Of a stretch of 64,000 nt of DNA, positions 9,954-54,251 are shown one piece after another (the stretch's first letter is position 1; each line of letters opens with the position of its first letter). The DNA comes from Candidatus Woesearchaeota archaeon (GTDB lineage: Archaea; Nanobdellota; Nanobdellia; Pacearchaeales; UBA284), in assembly GCA_964396475.1 (NCBI GenBank), contig CAYNFE010000001.1, positions 69,474 through 133,473 of the forward strand, in the 5' to 3' direction. The notes below the pieces were generated by a model. It was not told the origin of the DNA, did no database searches, and saw nothing but the letters and a program-made list of their open reading frames with translations. Position numbers and translations under genes: made by a program.

Positions 9954-9961
9954 TTTGAAGT

Positions 9962-27012: not shown

Positions 27013-27013
27013 T

Positions 27014-33118: not shown

Positions 33119-33126
33119 TTTTTAAT

Positions 33127-34716: not shown

Positions 34717-34853
34717 TTTCCCTTTAGCCTTTAGTTCTCAACGAACTTATTCTATTTATTTTTTTTCTTTTTTAAATCTTTCGCCTTTCTAAACTAAAAA
34801 GTAGTGACAAGAAGGTAGTAAAAAATATATAATATTTTTCTTTATCTTTTAGA

Positions 34854-36167
34854 ATGAAAATATTTTTTACTGTCTTAATTTTAATTCTTCTGTTACCTTC
34901 AGTATCTGCGATAGTGATAAATGAAATTTTACCTGATCCAGAGAGTGATTGGAATGGTAATGGACAGAATGAAACATATGCTGATGAATGGATAGAGTTA
35001 TTTAATACTGGGCAGACAAAAAATTTAACTGGGTGGAAAATAGGTGATAAGGTTGAGAATTATACTTTAAATCATATTATATGTTCTGGATGTTTTTTAG
35101 TTTTGTTTGGTTCTGAAACTTCTTTACAGTTGAATAACAATGATGAAACTGTTTATTTTTATGATAACAATAGTATTCTTATTGATTCTTATTCATATTC
35201 TTCTTCCTCTGATGACTTATCTTTTGGAAGATGTCCTGACGGTAATGCATCTTGGCAATCAAATTTAAATCCAACACCAGGACAAGCAAACAACTGTTCG
35301 CAACAACAGCAAGAAGAAAAAGAATTAAACTTAGATTATCCAGGGCAAGTCGAGTGTGAAGAAGAATTTTATATTGAGATTGAAGCTTCTGGTTTTGAAG
35401 ATGGTGATTATGATGTCAAAATAGATATTCTTAGTGAGAATGACGAAGAGAGAATAGGAAAAGTGTGGAATGAAGAAGATGAGAAATGGCAGTCCACAAA
35501 TAATTATATAATAGAAATTTTAGAAATTGAGAATGACGAAGGAGATGTAAAATTAAAATATAAGATAGAGGATTTTGAAGGAGATGCTATACTAAGGCCA
35601 AGGATAAGGAAAACAGGTTCAAGCTCTTATGAACAGTTTGATGATGAAGATATAGAAGTGGAATGTAATATCCAAGAGGAATCTGAGATCAAAATTCTAG
35701 AATGGCCTACAGAAGCTAGATTTGGTGAGGAGATTAAAGTAGAAATTGAAATTTATCGAGGAGATACAGCAAAATATGCAGTTTATATTTATGTTCAAGA
35801 CAATGAAGGATCAAAAATGAGTGATAAAATTAGTTTACATGCTGATGAAAAATTCCAGATATATACTGAAACTATAACATTGACACTTAAATGCGAGAAT
35901 GAACAAGGAACTTATGAAATTATTGCAGAAGGTTTTGATACTGAAGATAGAAAAGAAATAACAATAGAATCTTGTGAACCTGAATCTGAAGAACCTATGG
36001 TTGAATCTTCTAAAACTGAAACTACCAAGACTAAAACTTATCAATCTAGTCATTCATATCCTAGCTCTGTAGAATCAGAAAATCTTCTAATCAATAAAAC
36101 TTTACCTTATATTTTGTCTTCAATAGCATTACTTCTCGTCATTTATTTAATAATCAAGAAGATTTAA
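34854..36167 (+). CDS. C-terminally anchored surface protein with N-terminal lamin-tail domain (LTD)
   Basis: 437 aa. After the signal peptide comes IVINEILPDPESDW...DEWIELFNTGQTKNLTGWKIGD...ETVYFYDNNSILIDSYSY, an LTD pattern. An acidic middle region, a C-terminal TM and KKI follow. Confidence 0.7.
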   Translation: MKIFFTVLILILLLPSVSAIVINEILPDPESDWNGNGQNETYADEWIELFNTGQTKNLTGWKIGDKVENYTLNHIICSGCFLVLFGSETSLQLNNNDETVYFYDNNSILIDSYSYSSSSDDLSFGRCPDGNASWQSNLNPTPGQANNCSQQQQEEKELNLDYPGQVECEEEFYIEIEASGFEDGDYDVKIDILSENDEERIGKVWNEEDEKWQSTNNYIIEILEIENDEGDVKLKYKIEDFEGDAILRPRIRKTGSSSYEQFDDEDIEVECNIQEESEIKILEWPTEARFGEEIKVEIEIYRGDTAKYAVYIYVQDNEGSKMSDKISLHADEKFQIYTETITLTLKCENEQGTYEIIAEGFDTEDRKEITIESCEPESEEPMVESSKTETTKTKTYQSSHSYPSSVESENLLINKTLPYILSSIALLLVIYLIIKKI

Positions 36168-39080: not shown

Positions 39081-39118
39081 TTTAATAGATAGAGAAAAAA
39101 GAGTTAATAAATTTTTTC

Positions 39119-43030: not shown

Positions 43031-43777
43031 ATGCCTATGTTAATTAAATTAGATAATCCAAAACTTCTTGCCGATAGTATTTCATTGCTTTCAGATCTAG
43101 TCTTGGAAGTTAAGGCAAAAATAAATAAGAATGGTTTTGAGATAACAGCAATAGATCCTGCTAATGTTGCTTTAATATCATTAAAAATTCCAGCAAAAGT
43201 TTTTTCACAATTTGAATTAGATAAAAATAAGGAAGAAGAACTTGGATTGAATCTTGAAGATCTTAAACAAGTACTAAGAAGAGCATCACCAAACTCACCC
43301 CTCATAATAGAAAGGAAAGATAATACTATTAGACTAAAAATAAGGGAAAAATCAAAGAGGGCTTTTAGTTTAGCTTTAATAGATATAGAAGCTGAAGAAA
43401 AACAAATCCCAAATCTAAATTTCTTATCTAAAATAGAGCTAGACTCAAGAAGTTTTTCAGAATCAATAAATGATGCATCAATAGTTGCTGACTCTTGTTC
43501 TTTTAATGCCTCAGAAAATCTTTTTTTGATAGAGGCAAAAGGAACCCTAAATTCAGCTAAGACAGAATTTAACAGTGATGAGATAAAAATAGATTCTAAA
43601 GAAAATTCAAAATCCAAATATAGCTTAGATTATCTTGTTAAGTTTGCAAAAGCATCAAAATTATCTGATAAGGTTAAAATTAATTTTTCAAATGATTACC
43701 CTGCAAGATTTGATTTTGTTAACAAGGAAGGAATTGAGTTAAGTTTTATTCTTGCTCCGAGGGTAGAAGAAGAATAA
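43031..43777 (+). CDS. pcn: DNA polymerase sliding clamp PCNA
   Basis: 248 aa with a two-domain PCNA pattern (LSDLVLEVKAKINKNGFEITAIDPANVALISLKIP...LGLNLEDLKQVLRRA...YSLDYLVKFAKA). Confidence 0.9.
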   Translation: MPMLIKLDNPKLLADSISLLSDLVLEVKAKINKNGFEITAIDPANVALISLKIPAKVFSQFELDKNKEEELGLNLEDLKQVLRRASPNSPLIIERKDNTIRLKIREKSKRAFSLALIDIEAEEKQIPNLNFLSKIELDSRSFSESINDASIVADSCSFNASENLFLIEAKGTLNSAKTEFNSDEIKIDSKENSKSKYSLDYLVKFAKASKLSDKVKINFSNDYPARFDFVNKEGIELSFILAPRVEEE

Positions 43778-43824: not shown

Positions 43825-44649
43825 ATGGATAAAAGAGGACAGGTTACTCTGTTTATTATTATTGCCATTGCCATCGTAGCTGCCGCGGTTCTGGCTGTCG
43901 TTTTCTGGCCCGCTATATCTACAATGTTTATGTCTCAACAACAAGCAGAAACTTTTTTAGCTAGCCAGGCAGAACCTTTGAGAGATTCTGTCTATGATTG
44001 TGTTTATTTCGCAAGTTATCCTGCTCTTGAAAGAATGGGTTCACAAGCAGGCTATTATGATACTACTGGCCTAGATTCATTATATTTTACTGGTTCTGAT
44101 TATGTTGTTGTCATGTTTAAAGACTCTGCAAAACAAAGAATAAACAAACTTCCAAGCAAGACACAAATAGAAGAGCAATTTTCTCTCTTTTTAGAAAGAG
44201 AGGGTTATTTTGAGATTGATGATTGTTTGAATGATTTTTCTTCTTTTAAGAGAAAAATGGATGTTGAACCCGGACAAAAAGAGATAACAGCATCAATAAA
44301 TCCTGATTTTATTGTATTAGAAGTAGATTGGCCTATAAAAATAAGCAAGCAGACAGCAAGAGCAACTGCTGAGCAGACAGTCAATCAAAGACCAGTAACT
44401 TTCCTCATACCTTTAGGAAATTTATGGTATACTGCTAATAGGATTGTTGATTGTGAAACGCAGATAGATTGTGATTATGAGGGTCTTAAATGGGATGAAG
44501 AGACATGGGATGATCCTTACACACTTCAATATGTAAGCAGAGATGCTCTAAGTATTAATGAAAATCAAATTGTCTTTTTACTTGAATCAATTCCCTCAAG
44601 AACAGGAGAATTTCCATATAAATTTAATTTTGCAATAGATAGGACATAA
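43825..44649 (+). CDS. class III signal peptide (type IV pilin-like) protein, paralog A
   Basis: The N-terminus MDKRGQVTLFIIIAIAIVAAAVLAVVFW has a charged-Gly-Gln junction plus a hydrophobic helix. Paralogous to 52772..53521. Confidence 0.65.
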   Translation: MDKRGQVTLFIIIAIAIVAAAVLAVVFWPAISTMFMSQQQAETFLASQAEPLRDSVYDCVYFASYPALERMGSQAGYYDTTGLDSLYFTGSDYVVVMFKDSAKQRINKLPSKTQIEEQFSLFLEREGYFEIDDCLNDFSSFKRKMDVEPGQKEITASINPDFIVLEVDWPIKISKQTARATAEQTVNQRPVTFLIPLGNLWYTANRIVDCETQIDCDYEGLKWDEETWDDPYTLQYVSRDALSINENQIVFLLESIPSRTGEFPYKFNFAIDRT

Positions 44650-44665
44650 AAAATAAAATAAAAAA

Positions 44666-46480
44666 ATGAAAAAAATATTTACAATACTAGTGATGATTTT
44701 GATAGTTAGTATGACATTCAGTGTATCATTGTCCTTATCTTCTAAACAAGTTGAAGCTCAGGAACAAGAGGGCTGTTGTCTTGATACAGGAACAGGACAA
44801 CAGTGTGTGAGAACAACAAGAACAGAGTGTCCAGGAAGATTTTTTACTGGTCCTCCATATGATTGTTCTAATATACCTGAATGTACTCCTCAGACATGCA
44901 TTCCAAAAAAGAAGGATGAACCTTGTCTGAGAAATAAACCAGCTGCTGAATGTAGAGCTATGGGTGGAGTTCCAGAAAATCAACCTTTAGAATCAATTCC
45001 TCAATGTAAACCAGGTTGCTGTATTATTGCAGATGGAGTGAAGGCAGAAGTCTTGCAATATAGACAGTGTGAAAATCTTACTACAGCCTTAGGTTATGAA
45101 TTAAATATGATGGAATTTAGAGATGATATAACAAGTCAGGTAGAGTGTAAGAAAGTTGGTTCTCCAAGTGATTTAGGTTGCTGTGTTTTAGGGGCAGGTT
45201 CTTGTGCTTATGGTCCAAGACGAGAGTGCCAGGAAGGAAATTTTGTGCCTTTACAGGGTGGCTATTTTTGCAGAGATGTTGCTGACTGTGCTTTAACTAC
45301 TAACTTTTATTATGATTGTGGAAAATTACCTGGAAGTGAAACAGATATTTATTGGTTTGATAGTCAAGGCAATCAAGAAGAAATGACTGAAGATGGAGAT
45401 TGTAATTATCCTGATGCTCTATGTACTAAAGACAATATTGGAAATGTTTATTGTATGAGTACTAAATGTGAAAATATCTTTTTAGAAGACCAAATCATGT
45501 CAGATCATCCACCAAAAGTTGATATTAGAACAAGAACAGTTAATCTACTTACAGGAACTAGTGTGTGTTATAATTTTTATACAGCTTATGGAGATGAGAG
45601 AATGCAAGAAAGATCAACAGGCTTGCAGAATCAGATTCTTCACTGCTCATTTGGTAAGATAGATGTTGAGGGTTTAGGCCAGGATAGAGAAAAATTATGT
45701 ACTGAGGGAGGAGATTCTCCTGCTCTAATCCATGGAACAGTCAAAGAAAATAAATGGGATGAATGCAGTAAATGCGGATCTTCAGAAGGATTATTTGGAT
45801 TTGGTAATGAGGTTGGTGATTTCTTAGGGCCAGCTTCCATAGGATTGCCAACAGGAACAATGTTTTCAAGTCTATTTGGAGATTATTGTAATAAAGATAA
45901 GTGTGAGGGATTAAATGGAAATCCTGGTTATGGTGATTGTTATTATCATGAAGATGTTGGCAAAATAGGTTTTGGAACACCTATAGGTTCTTGTGATCCA
46001 ATATATCCACCAGGACTTGCAAACAGTCAGTGTACAGATTGTGGGGGTGGAGGAGATGCAGTATGGAATCTTTGTACAGAAGCAGAGTGTTATAGTAAAG
46101 GAGACTGTCAATTCCAGCCAGCTAGCACATGGTTGAGAGCAGGAACATTCATATGGTTCGCACCAGGCCTTGCAGTTGGAGAAAGAATAAGCCAGATAAT
46201 TCCAGAATGTATTATAACCACATCTTACTGTGCAATCAACAAACTAGATCCAGCATGCTTACACTCTTCAAATTATAATATATTAAGTTGTCTAGCAGAT
46301 AGAGGAAAAGCTTATGCAATCTGGGCGCCAGTATGGATAATCAATGGCAAGCTTATGGGGGCAGCCTGGAATGCCTTAAGTGGAGAGGTAACAAATAAAA
46401 TTGTATCAGAAGGAAAGAAAGCTGTTTTTGGTGGCGGCGAACAAGGAGGAGAACAAGGCAACCAAGGAGGTAATGAATAA
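44666..46480 (+). CDS. Cys-rich secreted protein of unknown function (604 aa)
   Basis: Signal peptide, then three GCC modules (EGCCLDTGTGQQC, PGCCIIADGVKAEV, LGCCVLGAGSCAY). Many further Cys, two amphipathic/hydrophobic C-terminal segments and a Gly/Gln/Glu tail. Confidence 0.7.
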   Translation: MKKIFTILVMILIVSMTFSVSLSLSSKQVEAQEQEGCCLDTGTGQQCVRTTRTECPGRFFTGPPYDCSNIPECTPQTCIPKKKDEPCLRNKPAAECRAMGGVPENQPLESIPQCKPGCCIIADGVKAEVLQYRQCENLTTALGYELNMMEFRDDITSQVECKKVGSPSDLGCCVLGAGSCAYGPRRECQEGNFVPLQGGYFCRDVADCALTTNFYYDCGKLPGSETDIYWFDSQGNQEEMTEDGDCNYPDALCTKDNIGNVYCMSTKCENIFLEDQIMSDHPPKVDIRTRTVNLLTGTSVCYNFYTAYGDERMQERSTGLQNQILHCSFGKIDVEGLGQDREKLCTEGGDSPALIHGTVKENKWDECSKCGSSEGLFGFGNEVGDFLGPASIGLPTGTMFSSLFGDYCNKDKCEGLNGNPGYGDCYYHEDVGKIGFGTPIGSCDPIYPPGLANSQCTDCGGGGDAVWNLCTEAECYSKGDCQFQPASTWLRAGTFIWFAPGLAVGERISQIIPECIITTSYCAINKLDPACLHSSNYNILSCLADRGKAYAIWAPVWIINGKLMGAAWNALSGEVTNKIVSEGKKAVFGGGEQGGEQGNQGGNE

Positions 46481-46833
46481 TGTCAATAGGAAAATATATT
46501 GCTGTAGGATTAATAAGTGCTGTTGTAGGAACTGGTATAACATATCTTGCAACTACTTCATATTATCAAAATCAAGTCAATAATCTACAACAAGAAAATA
46601 TTGAACTAACAAAAGAGAATACTAAACTCGAAAAAAAGTATGAAGGTATGAAAAATTTATTTTTAGAATCAATATCTCTGGAAATAAAAAGTATGGAAGA
46701 AGATTTAAAAGAAGAAGATAAAAGCCAAAAATTTAGCTGGAAAGAATATGAAGAAGAAAAAGAAGCCATAAAAAAAGAAATTCAAAAAGAAATCGGACCA
46801 AATGAACTTGAGAAAAAACTGACTGAAAAATGA
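46480..46833 (+). CDS. single-pass membrane coiled-coil protein (117 aa)
   Basis: N-terminal TM (IAVGLISAVVGTGITYLA) followed by heptad-like K/E/L sequence. The start overlaps the preceding stop by 1 nt, and its stop overlaps the next start by 4 nt. Confidence 0.6.
   Translation: MSIGKYIAVGLISAVVGTGITYLATTSYYQNQVNNLQQENIELTKENTKLEKKYEGMKNLFLESISLEIKSMEEDLKEEDKSQKFSWKEYEEEKEAIKKEIQKEIGPNELEKKLTEK
46732..46781. repeat. 50-nt segment repeated at 47724-47773 (encodes FSWKEY-acidic-EAIKKE)
   Basis: tttagctggaaagaatatgaagaagaaaaagaagccataaaaaaagaaat versus tttagttggaaagaatatgatgatgaagaagaagccataaaaaaagaaat. Confidence 0.8.
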
Positions 46834-49800
46834 AAAATAAATCACTAAAAATATTTTTTGTATCAATCTTAGCATTGACTATAATCCTATCAGCTTTACC
46901 TTTGTTGAATGCACAAAAATTTGAAACAATAAGAAAGCAAGAAGACCCAATAGTTGCCAACCTTAGTTTAGCTAGACTTAATTTATACCAAGAGGACATG
47001 GAAGATGGTCGGTATAGAATTAAATGTGATATAACAGGTGCAGAGTATACTATGGATCATAAATATGAATATCAAGTTAATATTATTGTAGAGGACTTAA
47101 ATACTGGAAAAGAAAAAAGATCTACAGCAACATTAAAAAAACACAAAGGCATTTTTGATCCAGGTTGGGATACACGAACTAGATGGGAATTATTTAAAGA
47201 TCAAATGTTCTTACCAGTTACCTTAGGTATAGGAAATGCTTTACAAATAAGAAGTAGGATGGCAAATAAGGGACAGAGTTTTGGAGAAGCTATCAATCCT
47301 ATGGCAGATTTTTGGCCTACTACTAAAGGAGCATATTTAATTATAGGTCCTGAAGTTGAAAAAGCAAATATAGTTTGTAATTATTATTATAAAAAACCAG
47401 GAAGAGCGCAGGTATTTGAAGGACCAGTCTATATACTAACTACTTCATTTACCAAAACTTTAACAGGCCCTGTAGAACTATGGCAAGAACCAAAACAAGG
47501 AGATAAGGTAGCTGCTGAACTTCAAAAAATAGAAACTAAATTGATTGACATAAGAGTTTATAAAAAAATGGCAGGTGACATTGGTAGGCCAGATTTAATT
47601 CCAAGGGTAAAGGCTCTAGAAAAAAAACTTGAAGAGTACAAAACAGAACTAGAAACTAATGGGGAAAGTGCATTAGCCTCTGATGCTGGGATTACTAGTC
47701 AAGCAATAGCAATTACTGGTTACTTTAGTTGGAAAGAATATGATGATGAAGAAGAAGCCATAAAAAAAGAAATGTCAGGCACAGGAAAAGGAAGAGGCCT
47801 GGAACCACCAAGAACTACAACACCACCAAAACCAGAACCAGAATCAAATTGTGTAAAAAATGGATTAGGTTTTTGTACATTAGAAGAAAATTGTAAACCA
47901 CCTGAAAGAATTTGGAAGCTATCAAGTGATAAAGATGATTGTCCACCAAAATTCATAAATTCTGGCATGACAAGAGTAGAACAAGTTTGTTGTGCTGAGA
48001 ATAAAGATATAGAATGTTCTAGAGTTATGGGAGATTCAAGTTATGAATGTACTGATGTTAGTGGATGGGAATCAAAAATGGTAACTAATTATTGCCCTGA
48101 AAGAGGCAGAGCAACTTGCCCAGGTGATTTAAGATGTTGCAAACCCCCAACATGCGGAAGTGAAGGAGGTATTGTTGTTAAAACAAGGCCAGAAGAAATA
48201 GAAAAATGTAAGCAGCCAACAAAATCTGTTTTCAAAATAGAAGAGGGTATTTGTTGTGAGCCAAAAGAAGCTGAAAGAGAGGCTCCTAAAAAAGTAGGAA
48301 CATTAGGAAGACTTTCTGTATGTGTTGGTAAGTATTGGTTATGGGGTAAGGAAAATGACATAACTTTCTTGGAAGCTGCTAAAAAAAGTTTGAGTGAAGT
48401 TACAGGAGTTTCAGGATTACCTACTATTAATGTAGAACAATTTAAAACACTAACACCAGAACAGAAAAAGGAACAAACTGATAAATGGAAAGAACAGCTT
48501 TTCAACAAAAGAAAAGAAATCTTAGATGATGAAAAACTTAAAGATCAAGCAGAAAAAATAGCAGAAGCAGAAGATAGTCTTGAAAAAACAGGGATGATTC
48601 ACGCAATGACATGGTCTGAGATTTCCTCTAATATAATATCATGTGCTCTAGGTGCTTACAAAGCTGGAAGATTAGCTTTCCAAGGTGGCGAGAGAAGCAT
48701 GGGAAAATGTTCAGCTGAAATGCCATTGCCTGGAACAGAAGCTTGTTTGAGTTGTAATAAAGATCCTTATAGAATCTGTACTAAAGAAAGGTGTGCTATC
48801 TTAGGAACTTGCATAGCTGTTCCAACTGAAAAAGGTGACCAATATAATTGTATTCCTGGAGAGTGTGAAGAGCTTGGCCTTGTAGGAATGGAAGATGGAA
48901 TTATTGAATGGTATATTAATGGAGAAATGGCACCAGAAAGTCCAAAACAAGCTGATATTAGTCAAGGCAATATAAGGACAGACATAGGGGAGATTCCTTT
49001 CAATACAAAGATGATAATAGTTAATTTGACAACTGACAAGCCAGCTCAGTGTAGATGGATTTTAGATGAAAGGGGAGCTGAGTTTGAAAATATGGAAGAG
49101 TTTGAAGATAATTATTATCCTATGTTACCAGGAGGAATTCCAGGATGGCAGTATGCTGGAATAATGTTGCCAGGTGATGTTGCTAGAGATGAAGAACATA
49201 GAATATTTATCAAGTGTAATAATGCTTGTAATATTGCGCATGGAGCAAGCTATGATCAAAATTATATAGAATTCAAATTAGCAAAGAAACCAGATCAATT
49301 ACCTCCAATAATAGTACATATTGATCCTCCAAACCATGCTGTCATAAATGGCGACTGGAAAAACCTGACTGTTAGTTTCTGGCTTGATGAGCTTGGTAAT
49401 TGTAAATATAGTGATAAGTCAATGAATTACACAATCACTTATGAAGAGATGAAGTACTTTAATGAGAAACCAAATGAAAACTCTAGTGTTATTTTCGGGA
49501 GATGCTATCCGGATGAATGCATTCACTTGACTGGAGCTCAATGTACTCACTGTGAACTTGAATTAGACTTGAGCAAAGGTTATGAAGAATTAAACTGGAC
49601 TGAAATGCCTCCAGAAATGCAAGAACAGCTAGAAGAATCGTTGTCTAATATAACAAAATTATTTAATTTCATGATAAGATGTGAGGATACTGCTCATAAT
49701 ATAATGATTGAAGATGACACTTTAGATTATATCTTTATGACAATGCCTGGCTATAACATCAGTGTGATAAGGCCAGAGATGGATGAAAGAACTTATGACA

Positions 49801-50366
49801 GGCAGCCAGAGATAGAAGTAACAAGCGAGCCAAGAGTGACAGAATGTAAATACAAGACTTATCAGGGTCATGGTCCTAAAACCCCTCCAGCATGGGATGA
49901 GATGTATTATATAGATGAATATATGGATATAGTGCATTATGGCAAACATAATGAAACACTTAATGCAACAAAAACAGGAATGCTTCATACATTATGGGCT
50001 AGATGCAGTGATAAATGGGCTATTGAGGCTATAAATTTCACTAAATTCTATACTATATTAGATGAAGATTCTCCAATAATCATAAGAATGTATCATGATA
50101 CTACAGTAGGAGATTATCTACTTATTGAGACAGATGAAAATTCAACTTGTGTTTATGGAACAAGCTCTAGTATTGCATGTAATTATAATTTCACTGAGGG
50201 AACAACAATGACAGGAAACAATGAAACAATACATGCAACTTATTGGCAGCTTGATCATCTCTATTATATCAAATGTGTAGATGAATGGGAGAATTATCCT
50301 GGCAGAGCTCCTGAAGCTAACGCATGTACAGCAATAATAAATCCTTACGAAGTTCCTCCACTATAA
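46830..50366 (+). CDS. giant Cys-rich secreted protein of unknown function (1178 aa)
   Basis: Signal peptide (IFFVSILALTIILSALPLLNA) and a coiled-coil segment, then the linker PPRTTTPPKPEPES. Six-Cys-like modules and a CxxC..CT...C module precede a long C-terminal region. No TM anchor. Confidence 0.75.
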   Translation: MKNKSLKIFFVSILALTIILSALPLLNAQKFETIRKQEDPIVANLSLARLNLYQEDMEDGRYRIKCDITGAEYTMDHKYEYQVNIIVEDLNTGKEKRSTATLKKHKGIFDPGWDTRTRWELFKDQMFLPVTLGIGNALQIRSRMANKGQSFGEAINPMADFWPTTKGAYLIIGPEVEKANIVCNYYYKKPGRAQVFEGPVYILTTSFTKTLTGPVELWQEPKQGDKVAAELQKIETKLIDIRVYKKMAGDIGRPDLIPRVKALEKKLEEYKTELETNGESALASDAGITSQAIAITGYFSWKEYDDEEEAIKKEMSGTGKGRGLEPPRTTTPPKPEPESNCVKNGLGFCTLEENCKPPERIWKLSSDKDDCPPKFINSGMTRVEQVCCAENKDIECSRVMGDSSYECTDVSGWESKMVTNYCPERGRATCPGDLRCCKPPTCGSEGGIVVKTRPEEIEKCKQPTKSVFKIEEGICCEPKEAEREAPKKVGTLGRLSVCVGKYWLWGKENDITFLEAAKKSLSEVTGVSGLPTINVEQFKTLTPEQKKEQTDKWKEQLFNKRKEILDDEKLKDQAEKIAEAEDSLEKTGMIHAMTWSEISSNIISCALGAYKAGRLAFQGGERSMGKCSAEMPLPGTEACLSCNKDPYRICTKERCAILGTCIAVPTEKGDQYNCIPGECEELGLVGMEDGIIEWYINGEMAPESPKQADISQGNIRTDIGEIPFNTKMIIVNLTTDKPAQCRWILDERGAEFENMEEFEDNYYPMLPGGIPGWQYAGIMLPGDVARDEEHRIFIKCNNACNIAHGASYDQNYIEFKLAKKPDQLPPIIVHIDPPNHAVINGDWKNLTVSFWLDELGNCKYSDKSMNYTITYEEMKYFNEKPNENSSVIFGRCYPDECIHLTGAQCTHCELELDLSKGYEELNWTEMPPEMQEQLEESLSNITKLFNFMIRCEDTAHNIMIEDDTLDYIFMTMPGYNISVIRPEMDERTYDRQPEIEVTSEPRVTECKYKTYQGHGPKTPPAWDEMYYIDEYMDIVHYGKHNETLNATKTGMLHTLWARCSDKWAIEAINFTKFYTILDEDSPIIIRMYHDTTVGDYLLIETDENSTCVYGTSSSIACNYNFTEGTTMTGNNETIHATYWQLDHLYYIKCVDEWENYPGRAPEANACTAIINPYEVPPL

Positions 50367-50395
50367 GATTTCTTTAATTTATTTTAGAATTGGAA

Positions 50396-50502
50396 TGGGG
50401 CCAGAGGGACTCGAACCCCCGACTGACGGTATCTCCGTTAGGGTTGATAAGGGATGTGCCCTTATTCTGGAGCCGCCTGTTTTACCATTGAACTATGGCC
50501 CC
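50396..50502 (-). tRNA. tRNA-Trp (anticodon CCA) with a 36-nt intron
   Basis: Acceptor GGGGCCA/UGGCCCC, anticodon stem GGCGG/CCGUC with loop CUCCAG^intron^A, T-arm GGGGG-UUCGAGU-CCCUC. 107 nt precursor, 71 nt mature. Confidence 0.85.
50431..50466 (-). other. tRNA-Trp intron at canonical 37/38 position
   Basis: Intron AAUAAGGGCACAUCCCUUAUCAACCCUAACGGAGAU. Its 3' GGAG can pair with CUCC of the anticodon loop to form a 4-bp helix flanked by 3-nt bulges (AGA and AUA), which is BHB-like. It has an internal hairpin AUAAGGG/CCCUUAU. Confidence 0.7.
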
Positions 50503-50525
50503 TGATAATATGCTCAAGAATAAGT

Positions 50526-50535
50526 TATTTTAAAA
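50526..50535 (-). promoter_or_regulatory. TATA-box-like element upstream of tRNA-Trp
   Basis: TTTTAAAATA on the minus strand, 24-33 nt upstream of the tRNA 5' end and immediately after the hjc stop. Confidence 0.35.
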
Positions 50536-50540
50536 CCTTA

Positions 50541-50927
50541 TCATCTGACGAATCTCTCAAAACTTTTTCCTCTTCTTTTTATGTCATCAAATGAGATTGC
50601 AAGTCCTTTTCCTGTCTTATCTAATTTGTCTGGATGAATAAACCACCAACCTTTTCTAAGAAACTTGATTGCAAGAATAGGATTTAAACCAAAATTTTTA
50701 GCAAACTTGATTAGCTCTGATATTTGTTCTTTTCTTAGATATTTTTTATTATTGCTTGAAATTTTAACTTCAACAGCATACTTCTTTTTACCGTTTCCAG
50801 CAAACAAATCACAGTTAGTTTCAGAAATCATGCCGCTTCCAGCTACTCTTGCAACAGAAAAACCCTGCTGACTTAATAAATGAAGCAATTCTCGTTCAGC
50901 ATCACTTCCTCTTTTCTTGTTTGCCAT
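50541..50927 (-). CDS. hjc: Holliday junction resolvase Hjc
   Basis: KRGSDAERELLHLLSQQGFSVARVAGSG...CDLFAGNGKKKYAVEVK...ILAIKFLRKGWWF matches archaeal Hjc with its catalytic E..D..E.K. Confidence 0.85.
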   Translation of the reverse strand: MANKKRGSDAERELLHLLSQQGFSVARVAGSGMISETNCDLFAGNGKKKYAVEVKISSNNKKYLRKEQISELIKFAKNFGLNPILAIKFLRKGWWFIHPDKLDKTGKGLAISFDDIKRRGKSFERFVR

Positions 50928-50928
50928 T

Positions 50929-52779
50929 TTATATATGTAGGGTTGGAAGTTCAGGGTATTCTTTTTCTTCTTTTACTTTATCTAAACATTCTTGGTTTAT
51001 TATCCCTTTGTAATGTTTTAAAATATCTTGAGAAAATTTATAATCAAAAACATCTCTACAAGAAAGATAAATAAATTCTGCAGTAAAAGCCCAACCTTCA
51101 ACAGCTTCTACTCTATGTCCAACTCGTATTGTATAATCTTTTTCAGAATTAAGATATCTAGAATAATGTTTTTGTAATATTTCATTTATTTTTTTACCAG
51201 GTTCAGAAGTATTAAGAAAAAAAGAAATATCTTTATCAAAATCATCTTTTTTTTCTTTATTAATATAATTGAACCATATTGCATGTCCTCCTTCATGAGT
51301 TGAAACATCAAAAAGAGTATGATGTCCTATTTCTTTTACACGATTTGCACCACTACTTATACCATATTCGTCATTTGATACTACAATTTTATCCTGTTCA
51401 ATATCATAAAATCCCTTTCCTAATGTAATATCTGAAATTTCAATTTTTTCTGGTATTGTATTTCTCGCTTCTTTTAAATAAAAAAAATCTAATTCTTCCA
51501 TAGCTTTTTTTGTAATTCCTTTATTTAAATCAACAATAGTAACAGGATATTTTTTATCTTCTTCTTTCCATACTGTTTTTCCTCTTTGGTCTATATCTAA
51601 ATATTTTCCCCTGCTAACCTCTATTTTTTTAATTTCAAAAAGATTCTCAGTGTTGCTTTCTATATTTATTTTTGGTTTTCCATTTTCAAAAATAACTCTT
51701 TGACCATTGTAATCTATCTCAACATTTGAAGTATCACTGATTGCAATTTTATCATTAAGGGCAATAGCATTTAAATTTCCCTTTTCAAATATATTATTAA
51801 ATTTCAGAATTTCTCTCTCAGGATTGATGGTTTCTTCAAAAATAAATAAATTTTCCCCATTTATTATTAAATCACCTTCTAGATAACTTATAGTTCCTTT
51901 TTTCAATAAAAAGTCATTGTTAAATTTTTCTTCACCAACACTATTCCATAAAACTTCACCATCAACAATAGCATCTCCAATTTTAATATCTTCAAGGTTT
52001 ATTTTTAAAACATATCCTAAAACATCATCTTTTTCTAATCTTATTTTAATTGGTTTATCACTCTTTATTTTTTTTGAATTCAACATAATTTCTTTACCTG
52101 CTTCAATAGTTATATCTCCTGTTCTAATATTTACAATAGTTGTATTGAGAAATTTTATATTTGAATTATAAATTCTCAGCTGTGGATCATCATAGTCTTC
52201 CACAGGATAAAATTTTAATGTTCCTCTTATTTTAGAGAAATTACACCAATCACAATAAAAATAAGTACTATCCTTATTAGTTACAATTTTTATAGGGGCT
52301 TCTTCCCATGCGTCTCTAAAATCCCCTCCACCTATCCATTTTGGTTGTAGTTTATTCAAGGTATCTAAATTTTCTAAATAAAAAGAAGGCTCATCCAATT
52401 CTCCAGAAAAAAATACCTTTTTGTTATCAATATCATATCTGCATCCTTCTTTTGTAGCTATACTAATTTTTTCATTAATTAATATAGTTTTCCCTCTGAA
52501 AGACGAACTCATTTTAATGTTATTTATATTTCTACCATTTTCTAAAATAAATTTAATATCAGCAATGGTTGATATCTCTCCATCAATCATTCTTACTTCA
52601 AGTATGCCATCTTCTCTCATGTTGGCTTTTTCAATATTGCCTTTGAGTATATAATTGTATATTTTCTCTCCATTAGAAAAATCTCCATCATTCAAAATAT
52701 CTGCTTTAACATCATACATAGAAACAAATATAAAAATAAAAAATAATACAAAAAAAATTATTTTTAGATATTTATTCAT
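50929..52779 (-). CDS. secreted protein with single HExxH motif (putative zinc metallopeptidase)
   Basis: 616 aa with an N-terminal signal/TM (IIFFVLFFIFIFVSM). A long beta-rich N-terminal part precedes C-terminal FDVSTHEGGHAIWFNY and a downstream EAVEGWAFTAE. Confidence 0.5.
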   Translation of the reverse strand: MNKYLKIIFFVLFFIFIFVSMYDVKADILNDGDFSNGEKIYNYILKGNIEKANMREDGILEVRMIDGEISTIADIKFILENGRNINNIKMSSSFRGKTILINEKISIATKEGCRYDIDNKKVFFSGELDEPSFYLENLDTLNKLQPKWIGGGDFRDAWEEAPIKIVTNKDSTYFYCDWCNFSKIRGTLKFYPVEDYDDPQLRIYNSNIKFLNTTIVNIRTGDITIEAGKEIMLNSKKIKSDKPIKIRLEKDDVLGYVLKINLEDIKIGDAIVDGEVLWNSVGEEKFNNDFLLKKGTISYLEGDLIINGENLFIFEETINPEREILKFNNIFEKGNLNAIALNDKIAISDTSNVEIDYNGQRVIFENGKPKINIESNTENLFEIKKIEVSRGKYLDIDQRGKTVWKEEDKKYPVTIVDLNKGITKKAMEELDFFYLKEARNTIPEKIEISDITLGKGFYDIEQDKIVVSNDEYGISSGANRVKEIGHHTLFDVSTHEGGHAIWFNYINKEKKDDFDKDISFFLNTSEPGKKINEILQKHYSRYLNSEKDYTIRVGHRVEAVEGWAFTAEFIYLSCRDVFDYKFSQDILKHYKGIINQECLDKVKEEKEYPELPTLHI

Positions 52780-53521
52780 TTTTTATAGCAAATTGGAAAG
52801 TATAGTATGGTTGATTTTTTAATTTAAATTCTTGATCATCTAACTTGTACAAAATATCTTTTTCTATAATAAAAGGAGTAATAATTATATTATTATTTTC
52901 TTGGAAATAAGATACTAATTCAAGATCAATATAGCCAGGATCTTCTATGTTACTTTCAGTTAAATTTTCTGCTATTTCTATTAGTTTTTTAATTCTCAAA
53001 GAATATTGAAAATTATATTCGTCATCTAATCTAATTGTATGATCATGAAGAGTAACAGTTATTGGCCATACAATAATTAAGAAAATTTTATCTTCATCGA
53101 TTTTTACATCAACATCTGGATTACCTTTAGAAATTATGATGTCTGTAAATGTAGAAAAATTAATTTCCTCTATTTTTTGCTCTATTTTTTTAGATATTTG
53201 TTCTTCAATCATCTCCAAGGACGGAATCAATAATTCTTCATCATAATAATAGTATGGTATTTTTTCAAAATTAGTGCTGAGACTTTTATCAGGAGGCATA
53301 TAACTATAACCTCCCTGCAAACCCGCTAATATAAAACTATTAATAATTTTTTCATCTAAACTATCTTTTATATAATAATTTAGTGAACTAATCTCTGGAG
53401 TTTTTTCTAGTTGTGTTCTTTGATAATTTTGATAAATAAAATAGGCAGCAAGACCGGCAGCAACAATCACTATTGCAATAATAATGAAAAGCGTTACTTG
53501 ACCTCTTTTGTTTTTATTCAT
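52772..53521 (-). CDS. class III signal peptide (type IV pilin-like) protein, paralog B
   Basis: N-terminus MNKNKRGQVTLFIIIAIVIVAAGLAAYFIY. C-terminal and internal blocks align with 43825..44649. Confidence 0.65.
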   Translation of the reverse strand: MNKNKRGQVTLFIIIAIVIVAAGLAAYFIYQNYQRTQLEKTPEISSLNYYIKDSLDEKIINSFILAGLQGGYSYMPPDKSLSTNFEKIPYYYYDEELLIPSLEMIEEQISKKIEQKIEEINFSTFTDIIISKGNPDVDVKIDEDKIFLIIVWPITVTLHDHTIRLDDEYNFQYSLRIKKLIEIAENLTESNIEDPGYIDLELVSYFQENNNIIITPFIIEKDILYKLDDQEFKLKNQPYYTFQFAIKNE

Positions 53522-53591
53522 GTTTTTTTCAGTATAATAATATATTTAAAGTTTTGTTGATTTTAACTTTTTAATTTTTAGGACACAAAAA

Positions 53592-53843
53592 ATGCAAACT
53601 GATCAAGAAAAAGGAAATACTTTGCTTAGAATATTAACCCCTTATGTAATAACAAGAGATCCTTATGAAGCTGAAATGTATTATAAGATAGCAATGGATT
53701 TTTATAAAAATGCAGATGTTAAACCACCTTTTGAAGCAATAAACATTAAAAACCAAATAGATAAAGAAAAAGAGAAAAAATATATAGAAAAAATTATTAA
53801 TAAATTGTATGAATTTTCTATAAATCTTGAGGCAATACTGTAG
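53592..53843 (+). CDS. hypothetical protein
   Basis: 83 aa ORF. Its 3' end overlaps the convergent 53818..53985 gene by 26 nt. Confidence 0.4.
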   Translation: MQTDQEKGNTLLRILTPYVITRDPYEAEMYYKIAMDFYKNADVKPPFEAINIKNQIDKEKEKKYIEKIINKLYEFSINLEAIL

Positions 53844-53985
53844 TTCTATGATTTGCCTTAGCTCTCTCTTCAGCCTCTTTTAATAATTTTTCTACTTTCT
53901 TGTTCAAAGCTTCAGCAAGATTAGCTGAAACTCTAAGCTCTTTGACAACTTCTTTTATTTTTGATTTTATCACGATTTCTACCAT
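53818..53985 (-). CDS. small histone-fold-like protein (DUF1931-like)
   Basis: 55 aa ORF absent from the track: MVEIVIKSKIKEVVKELRVSANLAEALNKKVEKLLKEAEERAKANHRTTVLPQDL. The pattern (V.KSK.KE....VS.....L...V..L...A..RAKAN.R.TV...D) matches the DUF1931 family as I recall it. Confidence 0.5.
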   Translation of the reverse strand: MVEIVIKSKIKEVVKELRVSANLAEALNKKVEKLLKEAEERAKANHRTTVLPQDL

Positions 53986-54011
53986 ATTCTACTTGTATGA
54001 ATTAGAAATTT

Positions 54012-54194
54012 TTATGGTTTTTTTCCAATGATTCTATAAACCTTAGTTCCACAGACTGCACACTTACCTTTTACTGCCCAGACACCTTTTTTTATCTCTA
54101 CAAATTCTGGATTTACTACTTCTCTTTGTTCTTTGCATTTCATACATCTTGCCATGTACTTCTTTTTTTCTTCTGTCTTTTTTTCTTCTGCCAT
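54012..54194 (-). CDS. small zinc-ribbon protein (DUF5679-like)
   Basis: 60 aa: CMKCKEQREV...KGKCAVCGTKVYRIIG, two CxxC pairs. Confidence 0.45.
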   Translation of the reverse strand: MAEEKKTEEKKKYMARCMKCKEQREVVNPEFVEIKKGVWAVKGKCAVCGTKVYRIIGKKP

Positions 54195-54251
54195 TTTTTT
54201 CCTCCCTTTTTATATCGATATTTATCTTTTTAGTTTTATAAATCTTACTTT

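What the first reader, a model, noticed from the sequence alone, without database searches (positions are those of the whole stretch)
43825..53521. Convergent twin operons opened by paralogous pilin-like proteins and encoding unassignable giant Cys-rich secreted proteins: candidate novel surface / host-contact apparatus
Seen in the sequence:
- A plus-strand operon 43825->50366 (274, 604, 117 and 1178 aa; a 16-nt gap, then 1-nt and 4-nt start/stop overlaps).
- It converges on a minus-strand operon 53521->50541 (249 aa, 616 aa, Hjc; an 8-nt overlap, then a 1-nt gap), with tRNA-Trp between the two.
- Both operons open with paralogs whose N-termini carry ..KRGQVTLFIIIAI plus a hydrophobic helix. 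This is the pattern of archaeal class III (type IV pilin-like) signal peptides. Their C-terminal blocks also align (VDWPIKIS / IVWPITVT; YKFNFAIDRT / YTFQFAIKNE).
- The cargo is signal-peptide-bearing: two very Cys-rich proteins, a TM coiled-coil protein and a protein with one HEGGH motif.
I cannot place the 274, 249, 604, 117 or 1178 aa proteins in any named family.
Inference: this is a dedicated, pilin-primed extracellular assembly (adhesion, bridging or host penetration) in a reduced, probably episymbiotic archaeon. About 15 percent of the window is invested in it.
Basis: partly seen in the sequence, partly recalled or inferred. Interest (0 to 1): 0.85.

Follow-up and report, generated by a model that had tools for sequence, protein, structure and literature searches.

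The report
Pilin-like partner plus secreted-cargo gene cassettes
Two neighbouring gene clusters in a tiny symbiotic-type archaeon (Pacearchaeota) are copies of a widespread, undescribed two-part surface module: a small membrane protein with a pilin-type start is always encoded just upstream of a large secreted protein, and related copies elsewhere carry enzymes that cut bacterial cell walls.

Summary
In detail: all seven ORFs, their overlaps and the intron-containing tRNA-Trp are as described. P1 (274 aa) and P7 (249 aa) are true paralogs (hhalign 99.4%). No Pfam, NCBIfam, PHROGs or PDB family matches P1, P2, P4, P6 or P7.

- **Organism:** Candidatus Pacearchaeota (DPANN).
- **P1/P7 superfamily:** about 105 members in about 80 Pacearchaeota, Woesearchaeota and Nanoarchaeota loci.
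  - N-terminus is K-[RK]-[G/A/S]-Q-V-T-[IL]-F-I-I-I-A, which fits a class III (prepilin) signal.
  - The fold is confidently predicted but matches nothing solved.
- **Gene pairing:** each member sits directly upstream of a large Sec-signal protein, in 88 of 96 testable cases and often with a 4-nt overlap. Subfamily tracks cargo class 88 of 88.
- **Cargo in the window:** P2 and P4 are the split form of a protein that is single-chain elsewhere, namely a disulfide-rich N-terminal half plus tandem Ig-like domains. The order PCNA-P1-P2 is deeply conserved. P6 is an orphan with one HExxH.
- **Paralogous cassettes elsewhere:** these carry peptidoglycan-binding or peptidoglycan-hydrolase domains.

Best reading: a pilin-like partner tethers or presents secreted cargo for cell-cell contact. 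No type IV filament machinery was found nearby, and no pilin fold or Pfam match was found. Hjc is a bystander.

The parts
43825..44649 (+). P1 (274 aa), a class-A member of the P1/P7 superfamily. It has a class-III-signal-like N-terminus (MDKRG|QVTLFIIIAIAIVAA...), one TM helix, and an extracellular alpha+beta domain with near-invariant Cys59 and Cys134.
   Evidence: - 61 homologs of 270-280 aa, all Pacearchaeota.
- Alignment A1.
- AF2 pLDDT 88.5, pTM 0.78.
- No PDB or BFVD structural match.
- No Pfam or NCBIfam hit.
44666..46480 (+). P2 (604 aa), Sec-signal cargo that is disulfide-rich (43 Cys, GCC-type modules). It is homologous to the N-terminal half of the fused 1000-1400 aa proteins of relatives.
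   Evidence: - 257 representatives at E<=1e-3.
- More than 50 of these are P2+P4C fusions.
- 22 invariant Cys in A4.
- No PDB or Pfam hit for the profile.
46480..46833 (+). P3 (117 aa), a lineage-specific small protein with one TM-like segment and a K/E-rich (coiled-coil-like) tail, inserted between P2 and P4.
   Evidence: - TM-like segment at residues 7-25.
- Homologs only in the closest genome, L008, as 102 aa and 80 aa ORFs.
- Only sub-threshold FtsL/LapA-type hits.
46830..50366 (+). P4 (1178 aa), Sec-signal cargo. It has a variable N-terminal region (residues ~30-600: unknown domain, Pro/Thr linker, CC-containing Cys modules at 341-500, K/E-rich stretch) followed by a conserved C-terminal core.
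   Evidence: - The full-length search finds only itself and one 54% relative.
- Only residues ~433-1178 or 597-1178 align to syntenic homologs.
- 43 Cys and 15 N-glycosylation sequons.
48618..50363 (+). P4C, the conserved C-terminal core of P4 (residues 597-1178). It has a small Cys-knot module and then about five tandem beta-sandwich (Ig/FN3/cadherin-like) domains, with about 20 invariant Cys.
   Evidence: - 32 Pacearchaeota homologs.
- Alignment A2.
- AF2 pLDDT 85.8.
- Foldseek hits to multi-Ig ectodomains, cadherins, HPI and EA1 S-layers and GhpA at E 1e-12 to 1e-7, with TM only about 0.2.
- Fused to P2-like halves in relatives.
52772..53521 (-). P7 (249 aa), a class-B member of the P1/P7 superfamily with the same N-terminus (MNKNKRG|QVTLFIIIAIVIVAA...).
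   Evidence: - hhalign against the P1 family: 99.4%, E 5.9e-21.
- BLASTP against P0060: 5e-21.
- 32% identical to the L004 247-aa gene at the syntenic site.
50929..52779 (-). P6 (616 aa), Sec-signal cargo of the P7 cassette. It is Cys-poor, an orphan, and has a single HEGGH at residue 495.
   Evidence: - The 8-nt overlap with P7.
- No homolog in 87 loci by jackhmmer.
- Only an identical fragment in metagenomes.
- hhalign against the main class-B cargo family: 3%.
- HExxH shuffle probability 0.009.
43031..43777 (+). PCNA, a conserved upstream neighbour 47 nt before P1 on the same strand. It is not part of the module's function but is a stable synteny anchor.
   Evidence: - Precomputed Pfam PCNA_N/PCNA_C on the syntenic genes.
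- PCNA is present upstream in 26 of 31 loci with a P2-family gene.

Best explanation
The region holds two cassettes of a two-component cell-surface module specific to Nanoarchaeota-type DPANN archaea (Pacearchaeota, Woesearchaeota).

**Component 1, the partner (P1, P7).** It is a protein of about 250 aa.
- Its N-terminus, K-[RK]-[G/A/S]|Q-V-T-[IL]-F-I-I-I-A..., has the form of an archaeal class III (prepilin-type) signal.
- Its extracellular part is a disulfide-stabilised alpha+beta domain of a fold not seen in solved structures.

**Component 2, the cargo.** It is encoded immediately downstream, often translationally coupled. It is a large protein with an ordinary Sec signal and no membrane anchor of its own.
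- In the plus-strand cassette the cargo is the split form (P2 + P4) of a protein that is a single chain in other lineages: a disulfide-rich head followed by a stalk of tandem Ig-like domains. This is the architecture of an adhesin or scaffold.
- In the minus-strand cassette the cargo is an orphan protein (P6) with a possible zinc-protease motif.

**Inferred mechanism.**
1. The cargo is exported by Sec.
2. The partner is inserted in the membrane and probably trimmed by a prepilin peptidase.
3. The partner binds its cognate cargo and holds it on the cell surface, either as a membrane stalk or at the tip of a short type IV-like fibre.
4. The cargo is thereby presented to a partner or prey cell.

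Sister cassettes carry peptidoglycan-binding and peptidoglycan-cutting domains, so the system as a whole most likely serves contact with, and attack on, bacterial cell walls.

**What is shown and what is inferred.**
- Shown: paralogy, N-terminal motif, gene pairing, co-diversification, fusion/split, Ig-like fold, PG domains in paralogous cargo.
- Inferred: cleavage, physical binding, surface display, fibre formation, and the target.
For: **Gene pairing**
- Of 96 superfamily members with room downstream, 88 have an ORF of at least 300 aa starting within -60 to +400 nt on the same strand.
- 69 of these start within 30 nt, and 36 overlap the partner gene.

**Cognate specificity**
- For 88 of 88 members, the nearest distant relative (<=60% identity, different locus) has the same cargo class. 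None of 2000 permutations reached this.

**N-terminus**
- Position -1 is only G (75), A (25) or S (5).
- Positions -2 and -3 are K or R (positions not used for ascertainment).
- Q6 and T8 are invariant in the independently found set A1.
- The motif stays fixed while the globular domain falls to 17-25% identity.

**Anchoring logic**
- P2, P4 and P6 have a Sec-type signal and no other TM segment.
- P1, P7 and P3 are the only membrane-anchored products.

**Rosetta stone link**
- More than 50 representative proteins fuse a P2-like half to a P4C-like half. An example is P0111, where P4C occupies 817-1381 at E 9e-173.
- Tandem [P1a-fused][P1b-P2-P4C] loci exist.

**Cargo architecture**
- P4C is a chain of tandem beta-sandwiches.

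**Extracellular character**
- There are about 20-22 invariant Cys in each of P2 and P4C.
- Cys59 and Cys134 of P1 are near-invariant.

**Target**
- PG_binding_1 in the L004 P4 homolog (E 5e-13).
- PG_binding_1/2 and YkuD in class-B cargo.
- M23, SLT, Amidase_3 and Glucosaminidase at the C-termini of class-C cargo.

**Literature**
- Large murein transglycosylases in Woesearchaeota have been read as anti-bacterial (PMC9723730).
- Peptidoglycan hydrolases are prominent in Nanoarchaeota (PMC12352652).
- Class III signals also serve non-pilin surface proteins, and T4P loci carry large Cys-rich adhesin-like proteins.
Against: - No pilin or class-III Pfam or TIGR model reaches threshold in any of 62 members.
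- The confident P1 model matches no pilin in the PDB; the best TM is about 0.1.
- No type IV filament ATPase, platform protein or prepilin peptidase was found in the window, about 8 kb past its left end, or about 1.1 Mb of related loci. The motif screen used for this was crude.
- Small canonical pilin genes are rarely adjacent: L005, L007 and L076 only.
- The window's own cargo (P2, P4, P6) carries no peptidoglycan domain, and none was found in 30 P4 homologs. The bacterial-wall inference is therefore borrowed from paralogous cassettes.
- Co-diversification can also reflect simple vertical inheritance of linked genes.
- Positions +1 to +9 of the motif logo are biased, because the pattern Q[VL]T[LIT][FI]IIIA was used to fetch the loci.
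Confidence: 0.55

Rival explanations
1. Membrane-anchored chaperone or inhibitor, not a pilin. P1/P7 would be ordinary N-terminal signal-anchor proteins with PepSY/YpeB-like alpha+beta modules. They would stabilise, fold or hold inactive the downstream secreted protein, as Bacillus YpeB does for the cortex-lytic transglycosylase SleB encoded in the same operon. No peptidase cleavage or fibre would be involved.
For: - JGI labels three homologs 'YpmB', a PepSY protein.
- Makarova et al. [quoted passage not shown] This may be the same family.
- The AF2 model is a TM helix plus three helix+sheet modules.
- The weak Foldseek hits are NTF2/RsiV-type alpha+beta rolls rather than pilins.
- No filament machinery lies nearby.
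- Several cargos are peptidoglycan hydrolases or binders, like SleB.
Against: - Pfam PepSY does not hit any of 62 members even at E<=1.
- The family profile finds no PepSY or YpeB chain among PDB sequences.
- A passive anchor would not need the near-invariant K-[RK]-[GAS]-Q-V-T motif, which is kept while the rest of the protein diverges to below 20% identity.
- An archaeon has no murein of its own to protect from these enzymes.
- The identity of cls.004634 with this family was not tested.
Confidence: 0.25
2. Core cell-envelope (S-layer-type) proteins. P2/P4 would be the main wall or canopy protein of these archaea and P1 its membrane stalk, analogous to Sulfolobus SlaA/SlaB. The role would be structural rather than host contact.
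For: - The class-A cassette is near-universal and sits in a housekeeping context next to PCNA in 26 of 31 loci.
- P4C is a chain of Ig-like domains with 15 N-glycosylation sequons.
- Foldseek hits include the Deinococcus HPI and B. anthracis EA1 S-layer proteins.
- Conservation among Pacearchaeota is moderate to high, at 41-80% identity.
Against: - L007 encodes a separate canonical S-layer protein (PF05124 S_layer_C, 808 aa) 4.5 kb from its fused P2+P4C gene.
- The same partner superfamily also serves orphan, enzyme-bearing and giant hydrolase cargos, which are not lattice proteins.
- The N-terminal part of P4 is hypervariable, and one homolog bears PG_binding_1.
- The Foldseek matches are generic tandem-Ig matches with TM of about 0.2.
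Confidence: 0.12
3. Coincidental neighbours. The shared N-terminus would be just a common DPANN signal-anchor, and adjacency to large secreted proteins would reflect clustering of surface genes with no functional coupling.
For: - The window has another surface-protein island at 25-36 kb that lacks any P1-like gene.
- P6 has no homologs, so its pairing cannot be checked by conservation.
Against: - Only two ORFs in the 64-kb window have the motif, and both are followed by cargo.
- 88 of 96 family members are followed by cargo.
- 36 cases show start/stop overlaps.
- Subfamily-cargo concordance is 88 of 88.
- The P2/P4 fusion exists in relatives.
Confidence: 0.03

Closest known systems
Type IV pilus minor-pilin plus secreted tip partner pairs (PilVWX/FimU-PilY1; type IVb CofB-CofJ and TcpB-TcpF). 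This comparison rests on my own knowledge, plus the PilY-like adhesins of archaeal T4P loci (PMC4858521; preprint 10.64898/2026.04.22.720090).
   Same: - A protein with a prepilin-type N-terminus and a large globular domain is encoded next to a big Sec-secreted protein that has no anchor.
- The partner presents the secreted protein at the cell surface.
- Multiple conserved cysteines are noted in archaeal T4P-locus proteins.
   Different: - There is no sequence or structural similarity of P1 to any pilin, or of the cargo to PilY1 (DUF2341 or beta-propeller).
- No assembly ATPase, platform protein or peptidase lies in the neighbourhood.
- There is one dedicated partner per cargo, repeated in 2-4 or more cassettes per genome.
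- Position +5 is Phe, not Glu.
[quoted passage not shown]
   Same: - A class-III-type N-terminus sits on a protein whose globular part is not a pilin.
- The genes lie away from the filament machinery.
- The N-terminus is conserved while the C-terminal domains are diverse.
   Different: - Bindosome proteins are solute-binding proteins next to ABC transporters.
- Here the globular domain is an unknown fold, and the neighbour is a giant secreted protein.
Bacillus SleB-YpeB pair and PepSY-domain membrane proteins (my own knowledge; PepSY/YpeB lead from PMC6393860).
   Same: - An N-terminally anchored alpha+beta repeat protein is co-encoded with a secreted cell-wall-active protein that depends on it.
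- Several cargos carry PG_binding_1 or lytic domains.
   Different: - PepSY is not detectable by HMMER.
- Gene order is partner first.
- The producer has no murein.
- The N-terminal motif is far more constrained than a plain anchor would be.
'Large lytic murein transglycosylases' of Woesearchaeota (AR20 and Lake A MAGs; PMC9723730) and archaeal peptidoglycan hydrolases (PMC12352652).
   Same: The class-C cargos found here (about 2000-2340 aa with C-terminal SLT, M23, Amidase_3 or Glucosaminidase) are evidently these proteins or their kin.
   Different: - Those papers describe the enzymes alone.
- The upstream long-form P1-family partner, and the link to the Cys-rich P2/P4 cassette next to PCNA, do not appear in the texts I searched.
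- The window's own cargo has no hydrolase domain.
Sulfolobales S-layer pair SlaA/SlaB (my own knowledge).
   Same: A two-gene unit encodes a large glycosylated Ig-like-rich outer protein and a smaller membrane-anchored stalk.
   Different: - SlaB is anchored by a C-terminal TM segment and has a coiled coil.
- There is no sequence similarity.
- A separate S_layer_C protein exists in L007.

Membership tests
Archaeal type IV pilin / class III signal peptide protein | N-terminal charged leader, then [K/R]-[G/A](-1), then cleavage, then about 20 hydrophobic residues (FlaFind-type pattern [KRDE][GA][ALIFQMVED][ILMVTAS][ILMVTAS], recalled from memory). | tested here: met
   - P1 has KRG|QVTLFIIIAIAIVAAAVLAVVF.
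- P7 has KRG|QVTLFIIIAIVIVAAGLAAYFI.
- Across 105 members, -1 is G75/A25/S5 and -2/-3 are K or R.
Archaeal type IV pilin / class III signal peptide protein | Match to curated N-terminal models (Pfam Class_IIIsignal or archaeal pilin N-terminal families; TIGR02537 arch_flag_Nterm). | tested here: not met
   - No Pfam hit at E<=1 for P1.
- TIGR02537 gives only E 0.47 (10 bits against a cutoff of 20) for P7.
- No such family appears among 62 members.
Archaeal type IV pilin / class III signal peptide protein | Pilin fold: N-terminal helix packed on a globular beta-rich head, similar to solved pilins or archaellins. | tested here: not met
   - The AF2 model has pLDDT 88.5.
- Foldseek against the PDB gives a best E of 8e-3 with TM about 0.1 and no pilin in the top 50.
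- The profile against PDB sequences gives only a non-significant N-terminal-only fimbrial protein (E 1) and flagellin (E 2.2).
Archaeal type IV pilin / class III signal peptide protein | Genomic association with the filament machinery (VirB11/FlaI-type ATPase, FlaJ/TadC platform, A24 peptidase). | tested here: not met
   - None is present in the window, about 8 kb past its left end, or about 1.1 Mb of family loci by motif screen.
- The whole genome could not be scanned.
- Archaeal pilin genes are often unlinked to the machinery (PMC4858521), so this is weak evidence against membership.
Archaeal type IV pilin / class III signal peptide protein | Cleavage by a prepilin peptidase (PibD/FlaK/EppA) and incorporation into a filament. 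| not testable with these tools
   This needs proteomics or N-terminal sequencing, or a heterologous cleavage assay.
PepSY / YpeB-like membrane proteins | Detectable PepSY domain(s) (PF03413) after an N-terminal anchor. | tested here: not met
   - No PepSY hit in 62 members at E<=1.
- No PepSY or YpeB chain is found by the profile in PDB sequences.
- Sensitivity at the HHpred level was not available, so a remote relationship (PMC6393860) stays open.
Archaeal S-layer proteins | Match to S-layer families (for example PF05124 S_layer_C) or a specific structural match to an S-layer protein. | tested here: not met
   - No Pfam hit for P2 or P4.
- Foldseek hits to HPI and EA1 are generic tandem-Ig matches with TM about 0.2.
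- A separate S_layer_C gene exists in L007.
Zincin metallopeptidases (for P6) | HExxH in a conserved catalytic-domain context, with a third zinc ligand conserved among homologs. | tested here: inconclusive
   - There is one HEGGH at residue 495, with a shuffle probability of 0.009.
- There is no Pfam, NCBIfam or PDB match.
- There are no homologs with which to test conservation.
Peptidoglycan hydrolase / binding proteins (for the window's cargo) | Presence of PG_binding, SLT, M23, amidase or similar domains. | tested here: not met
   - None is present in P2, P4 or P6, or in 30 P4 homologs.
- They are present only in the L004 P4 homolog and in class-B and class-C cargos of paralogous cassettes.

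The most novel reading that the evidence does not exclude
The P1/P7 superfamily defines a previously unrecognised, lineage-specific display or secretion system of Nanoarchaeota-type DPANN archaea. Each large extracellular effector (adhesin-like P2/P4, orphan enzymes, giant polymorphic peptidoglycan hydrolases) would have its own dedicated pilin-signal partner of a new fold. That partner would mount the effector on a short type IV-like fibre or stalk. Together they would form the organelle by which these archaea attach to and breach bacterial hosts. This would imply that many Pacearchaeota and Woesearchaeota are episymbionts or predators of bacteria rather than of archaea.
Probability: 0.3. Interest if true: 0.88.

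Novelty: new variant of a known kind. Interest (0 to 1): 0.7.

Why it matters
Pacearchaeota and Woesearchaeota are among the most abundant uncultured archaea. Their hosts, and the way they contact those hosts, are unknown.

This work turns seven 'hypothetical proteins' into a defined and testable module:
- a partner family with a prepilin-type start and a fold with no solved relative;
- a strict one-partner-one-cargo gene rule;
- a split/fused disulfide-rich Ig-stalk cargo conserved next to PCNA;
- sister cassettes whose cargo carries interchangeable bacterial-wall hydrolases.

It gives concrete handles for finding the host-contact apparatus in enrichments: antibody or cryo-ET targets, the mature N-terminus, and partner-cargo binding. 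It also supports the idea that these archaea interact with bacteria. Finally, it offers a simple genomic signature, the motif plus a downstream Sec-signal giant, for cataloguing effector repertoires in DPANN genomes.

Tried and rejected
- **ARAGORN for the tRNA** missed it. Rfam recovered it.
- **Full-length P4 homology search** saturated on low-complexity words and returned only 2 hits. It was rescued by searching residues 597-1178.
- **Sequence libraries** gave nothing for P1, P2, P4, P6 or P7. This covered Pfam, NCBIfam, PHROGs, single-sequence PDB searches and profile PDB searches.
- **Foldseek of the P1 model** against the PDB and BFVD gave no meaningful match.
- **PepSY/YpeB lead** from JGI names and PMC6393860 is not confirmed at HMMER level. 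I could not retrieve cls.004634 to test identity.
- **P6** has no homologs:
  - jackhmmer on 87 loci found none;
  - the metagenome scan found only an identical fragment;
  - hhalign against the main class-B cargo family gave 3%;
  - the exact-sequence look-up found nothing on record.
- **Viral origin** was rejected. There are no relatives in IMG/VR, and the context is conserved and housekeeping.
- **A third cassette in the window** (529/2034/587 aa cluster) was rejected. It has no P1-like N-terminus and no similarity to class-B or class-C cargo.
- **Motif screen for the secretion ATPase and prepilin peptidase** found only SRP54/FtsY-type GTPases.
- **Extending the source contig** worked only on the left side, which holds a ribosomal operon, SecY and a YidC-like gene. 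Look-ups for the right end, the middle and P0001 found nothing on record.
- **Single-linkage clustering of P1 globular domains** merged everything into one cluster. It was replaced by the nearest-neighbour concordance test.
- **arCOG02487-type predicted secretion system** (PMC5898192) was considered. It has different components, and no link was found.

Full report
**1. Observation**

The ORF map reproduces the finding exactly.
- Plus strand: 43825-44649 (P1, 274 aa), 44666-46480 (P2, 604 aa), 46480-46833 (P3, 117 aa) and 46830-50366 (P4, 1178 aa). The junctions are a 16-nt gap, a 1-nt overlap and a 4-nt overlap.
- Minus strand: 52772-53521 (P7, 249 aa), 50929-52779 (P6, 616 aa) and 50541-50927 (128 aa). 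The junctions are an 8-nt overlap and a 1-nt gap.
- The 128 aa protein is Hjc (Pfam 5.8e-27; NCBIfam 3.8e-36).

ARAGORN reports no tRNA between the operons. Rfam finds one at 50396-50502 on the minus strand (51.1 bits, E 4e-10). It is interrupted by about 40 nt after the anticodon loop, and the anticodon reads CCA, which is Trp.

The cargo features also hold.
- P2 has 43 Cys (7.1%).
- P4 has 43 Cys (3.7%) and 15 N-x-S/T sequons.
- P2, P4 and P6 start with Sec-type signals and have no other hydrophobic segment.
- P3 has one TM-like segment.
- P6 has one HEGGH. This is the only HExxH in 17,609 residues of window ORFs, and 0.9% of shuffles of P6 give one.

**2. Paralogy and the N-terminus**

BLASTP of P1 against P7 is only suggestive (E 4e-4). 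A 29-sequence P1 profile aligns to P7 with hhalign probability 99.4% and E 5.9e-21 over 188 columns. P7 also matches a distant family member at 5e-21.

In the 64-kb window only these two ORFs have a [KR][GA]Q start followed by a strongly hydrophobic 20-mer.

In the independently retrieved set A1, Q6 and T8 are invariant, and the residue before Q is only G or A. Over 105 non-redundant superfamily members, position -1 is G75/A25/S5 and positions -2/-3 are K or R.

One caveat applies. Positions +1 to +9 of that logo are inflated, because the genome scan used Q[VL]T[LIT][FI]IIIA as its pattern.

This is the form of an archaeal class III signal. The resemblance to Q(+1) substrates of EppA-type peptidases rests on my own recollection of Szabo et al. 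2007, which I could not open.

**3. Who has it**

All 61 P1 homologs and all 32 P4C homologs that carry a name are Candidatus Pacearchaeota. The genome-collection scan returned 80 loci from Pacearchaeota, Woesearchaeota and Nanoarchaeota MAGs.

Four records titled as bacteria also appeared. At least one of them (L055) has an archaeal PCNA beside the cassette.

There are several paralogs per genome, with three in the complete Pace33H chromosome. No relatives exist in IMG/VR.

**4. The cassette rule**

Of 96 family members with room downstream, 88 are followed on the same strand by an ORF of at least 300 aa starting within -60 to +400 nt. Of these, 69 start within 30 nt and 36 overlap the partner gene. 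The downstream N-termini are hydrophobic and signal-like.

Three classes emerge.

| Class | Partner length | Cargo |
|---|---|---|
| A | 253-280 aa | Cys-rich P2-type, or fused P2+P4C |
| B | 240-270 aa | Cys-poor, 340-1100 aa |
| C | 606-655 aa | Giants of about 1700-2340 aa |

For 88 of 88 members, the nearest distant relative (<=60% identity, another locus) has the same cargo class. None of 2000 permutations reached this. The window therefore contains one class-A cassette (P1) and one class-B cassette (P7).

**5. P2 and P4 are one system**

P1-, P2- and P4-homologs are syntenic in L001, L002, L004 and L008-L016. Only the C-terminal ~580-750 residues of P4 are conserved.

An exhaustive HMMER search with P2 found 257 representatives. 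More than 50 of them, at 1000-1400 aa, also contain a full P4C domain. One example is P0111, with P4C at 817-1381 and E 9e-173.

Many genomes carry the tandem arrangement [P1a - fused][P1b - P2 - P4C-protein]. The window's lineage keeps the split cassette. P3 occurs only there and in the closest genome, L008.

PCNA lies upstream on the same strand in 26 of 31 loci that have a P2-family gene.

**6. Structures**

P1:
- AF2 gives pLDDT 88.5 and pTM 0.78.
- The model has a TM helix (3-34), a long helix (38-73) and three helix+sheet modules.
- Foldseek finds nothing in the PDB (best E 8e-3, TM about 0.1, no pilins).
- It finds nothing in BFVD either.

P4C:
- AF2 gives pLDDT 85.8, and the model is all-beta.
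- It matches multi-domain Ig/FN3/cadherin ectodomains, two S-layer proteins and the GhpA grappling hook at E 1e-12 to 1e-7, but TM is only about 0.2.
- This makes it a generic string of about five beta-sandwiches, as in adhesins and surface scaffolds.

About 20-22 invariant cysteines in each of P2 and P4C, plus Cys59 and Cys134 in P1, point to disulfide-stabilised extracellular proteins.

**7. What the cargo does elsewhere**

- The L004 P4 homolog begins with PG_binding_1 (E 5e-13).
- Class-B cargos include PG_binding_1 (2 members, best E 1e-21), PG_binding_2 and a YkuD L,D-transpeptidase domain.
- Class-C cargos form one conserved giant family (25 of 26). Their C-terminal domains are interchangeable: Amidase_3, Peptidase_M23, SLT and Glucosaminidase.

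The class-C proteins correspond to the 'large lytic murein transglycosylases' already noted in Woesearchaeota and read as anti-bacterial weaponry (PMC9723730; PMC12352652).

None of these domains is present in the window's P2, P4 or P6, nor in 30 other P4 homologs.

P6 has no detectable relatives. Its HExxH therefore cannot be tested for conservation.

**8. Mechanism**

The cargos have cleavable Sec signals and no anchor. The only membrane-embedded products are P1, P7 and P3.

Three observations point the same way:
- tight, often overlapping gene pairing;
- strict partner-cargo co-diversification;
- an N-terminal motif kept invariant while the globular domain drifts to 17-25% identity.

The most economical model is that the partner binds its cognate cargo and retains or presents it at the cell surface.

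Whether the partner is a true filament subunit is open. The motif fits, and class III signals are known on non-pilin surface proteins. Against this, no curated pilin model matches and no pilin fold is seen. In addition, no assembly genes are found in the window, about 8 kb beyond its left end, or about 1.1 Mb of family loci. Small canonical pilin genes lie next to the cassette only in L005, L007 and L076.

I put 0.55 on 'pilin-signal partner that tethers or presents secreted cargo for cell-cell contact'. The rivals score as follows.
- A YpeB/PepSY-like anchor-chaperone without processing: 0.25.
- An S-layer-type structural pair: 0.12.
- Coincidence: 0.03.

**9. Comparison and novelty**

The nearest known logic is minor pilin plus secreted tip partner (PilY1 systems, CofB-CofJ, TcpB-TcpF, from my own knowledge). 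Also close are the adhesin-like, Cys-rich proteins of archaeal T4P loci (PMC4858521).

Membership in the pilin family fails three of the four testable criteria, so I do not file it as a pilin system.

Makarova et al. 2019 may already have flagged the partner family as a DPANN-specific 'double PepSY-like' dark-matter cluster. The giant hydrolases are also in the literature.

In the papers I could search, I found nothing describing the following:
- the partner-cargo cassette rule;
- the fusion/split relation of P2 and P4;
- the link between the Cys-rich module and the hydrolase-bearing cassettes.

I therefore rate it a new variant of a known kind, with interest 0.7.

**10.

- the significance of the convergent 'twin' layout;
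- including Hjc in the operon's function;
- treating P2 and P4 as separate unassignable giants;
- calling the openers pilins.

Noticed in passing
window 50396-50502 (-): tRNA-Trp (anticodon CCA) with an intron of about 36-40 nt right after the anticodon loop. Rfam finds it (51 bits) but ARAGORN misses it.
   Followed up: yes
window 43031-43777 (+); L001-L016, L032, L050, L051, L055, L073-L079: PCNA sits just upstream of the P1-type gene on the same strand, 47 nt away in the window. This order is kept in 26 of 31 loci with a P2-family gene, across very divergent genomes. It is an odd, stable linkage of a replication gene with a surface module and suggests possible co-transcription.
   Followed up: partly
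L002 10842-11641; JGI 3300072015 contig, locus positions 9342-9999: A HepT/MNT (HEPN/nucleotidyltransferase) toxin-antitoxin pair is inserted between the P1-type gene and its cargo in two unrelated genomes. This recalls the 'MNT-HEPN in housekeeping context in DPANN' remark of PMC6393860.
   Followed up: no
window 25249-36167: A second island of surface proteins holds a 587 aa protein (CARDB), a 2034 aa protein (Y_Y_Y + PKD), a 529 aa protein with no hit and a 437 aa protein (lamin-tail domain). None has a P1-like partner, and none resembles class-B or class-C cargo.
   Followed up: partly
L021, L027 (Pace33H), L029 and other class-C loci: A long-form partner (606-655 aa) is followed by a conserved giant of about 2000-2340 aa. 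Its C-terminal end swaps between Amidase_3, Peptidase_M23, SLT and Glucosaminidase, which is a polymorphic-effector-like design. The window itself contains no class-C cassette.
   Followed up: partly
window 36948-41530 (-); L001, L002, L007: Two large proteins with no Pfam hit (710 and 803 aa) lie between the primase large-subunit-like gene and the surface island. They are syntenic in distant relatives, and the L007 counterpart carries an intein, which hints at an essential (replication?) protein.
   Followed up: no
L005 11430-12415; L007 14692-15219: Small (164-175 aa) canonical pilin-like genes starting MKGQ.../...KKAQ... lie directly downstream of the fused P2+P4C gene in two lineages. The window has the unrelated P3 at the comparable place.
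   Followed up: partly
L053, L055, L074, L080: These are contigs filed under bacterial MAG titles (Cyanobacteria, Patescibacteria, 'bacterium', Bacillota) that carry the archaeal cassette. L055 also has an archaeal PCNA, so they are probably mis-binned or mislabelled archaeal contigs.
   Followed up: partly
window 44001-50000 vs 52001-56000: The plus-strand cassette is GC-richer (0.34-0.36) than the minus-strand cassette and its right flank (0.25-0.26). The window mean is about 0.30.
   Followed up: no
window 54252-56045 (-): A 597 aa lysine-rich ORF has repeated helix-turn-helix-like segments, with only a weak HTH_3 hit at the C-terminus. Its function is unknown.
   Followed up: no
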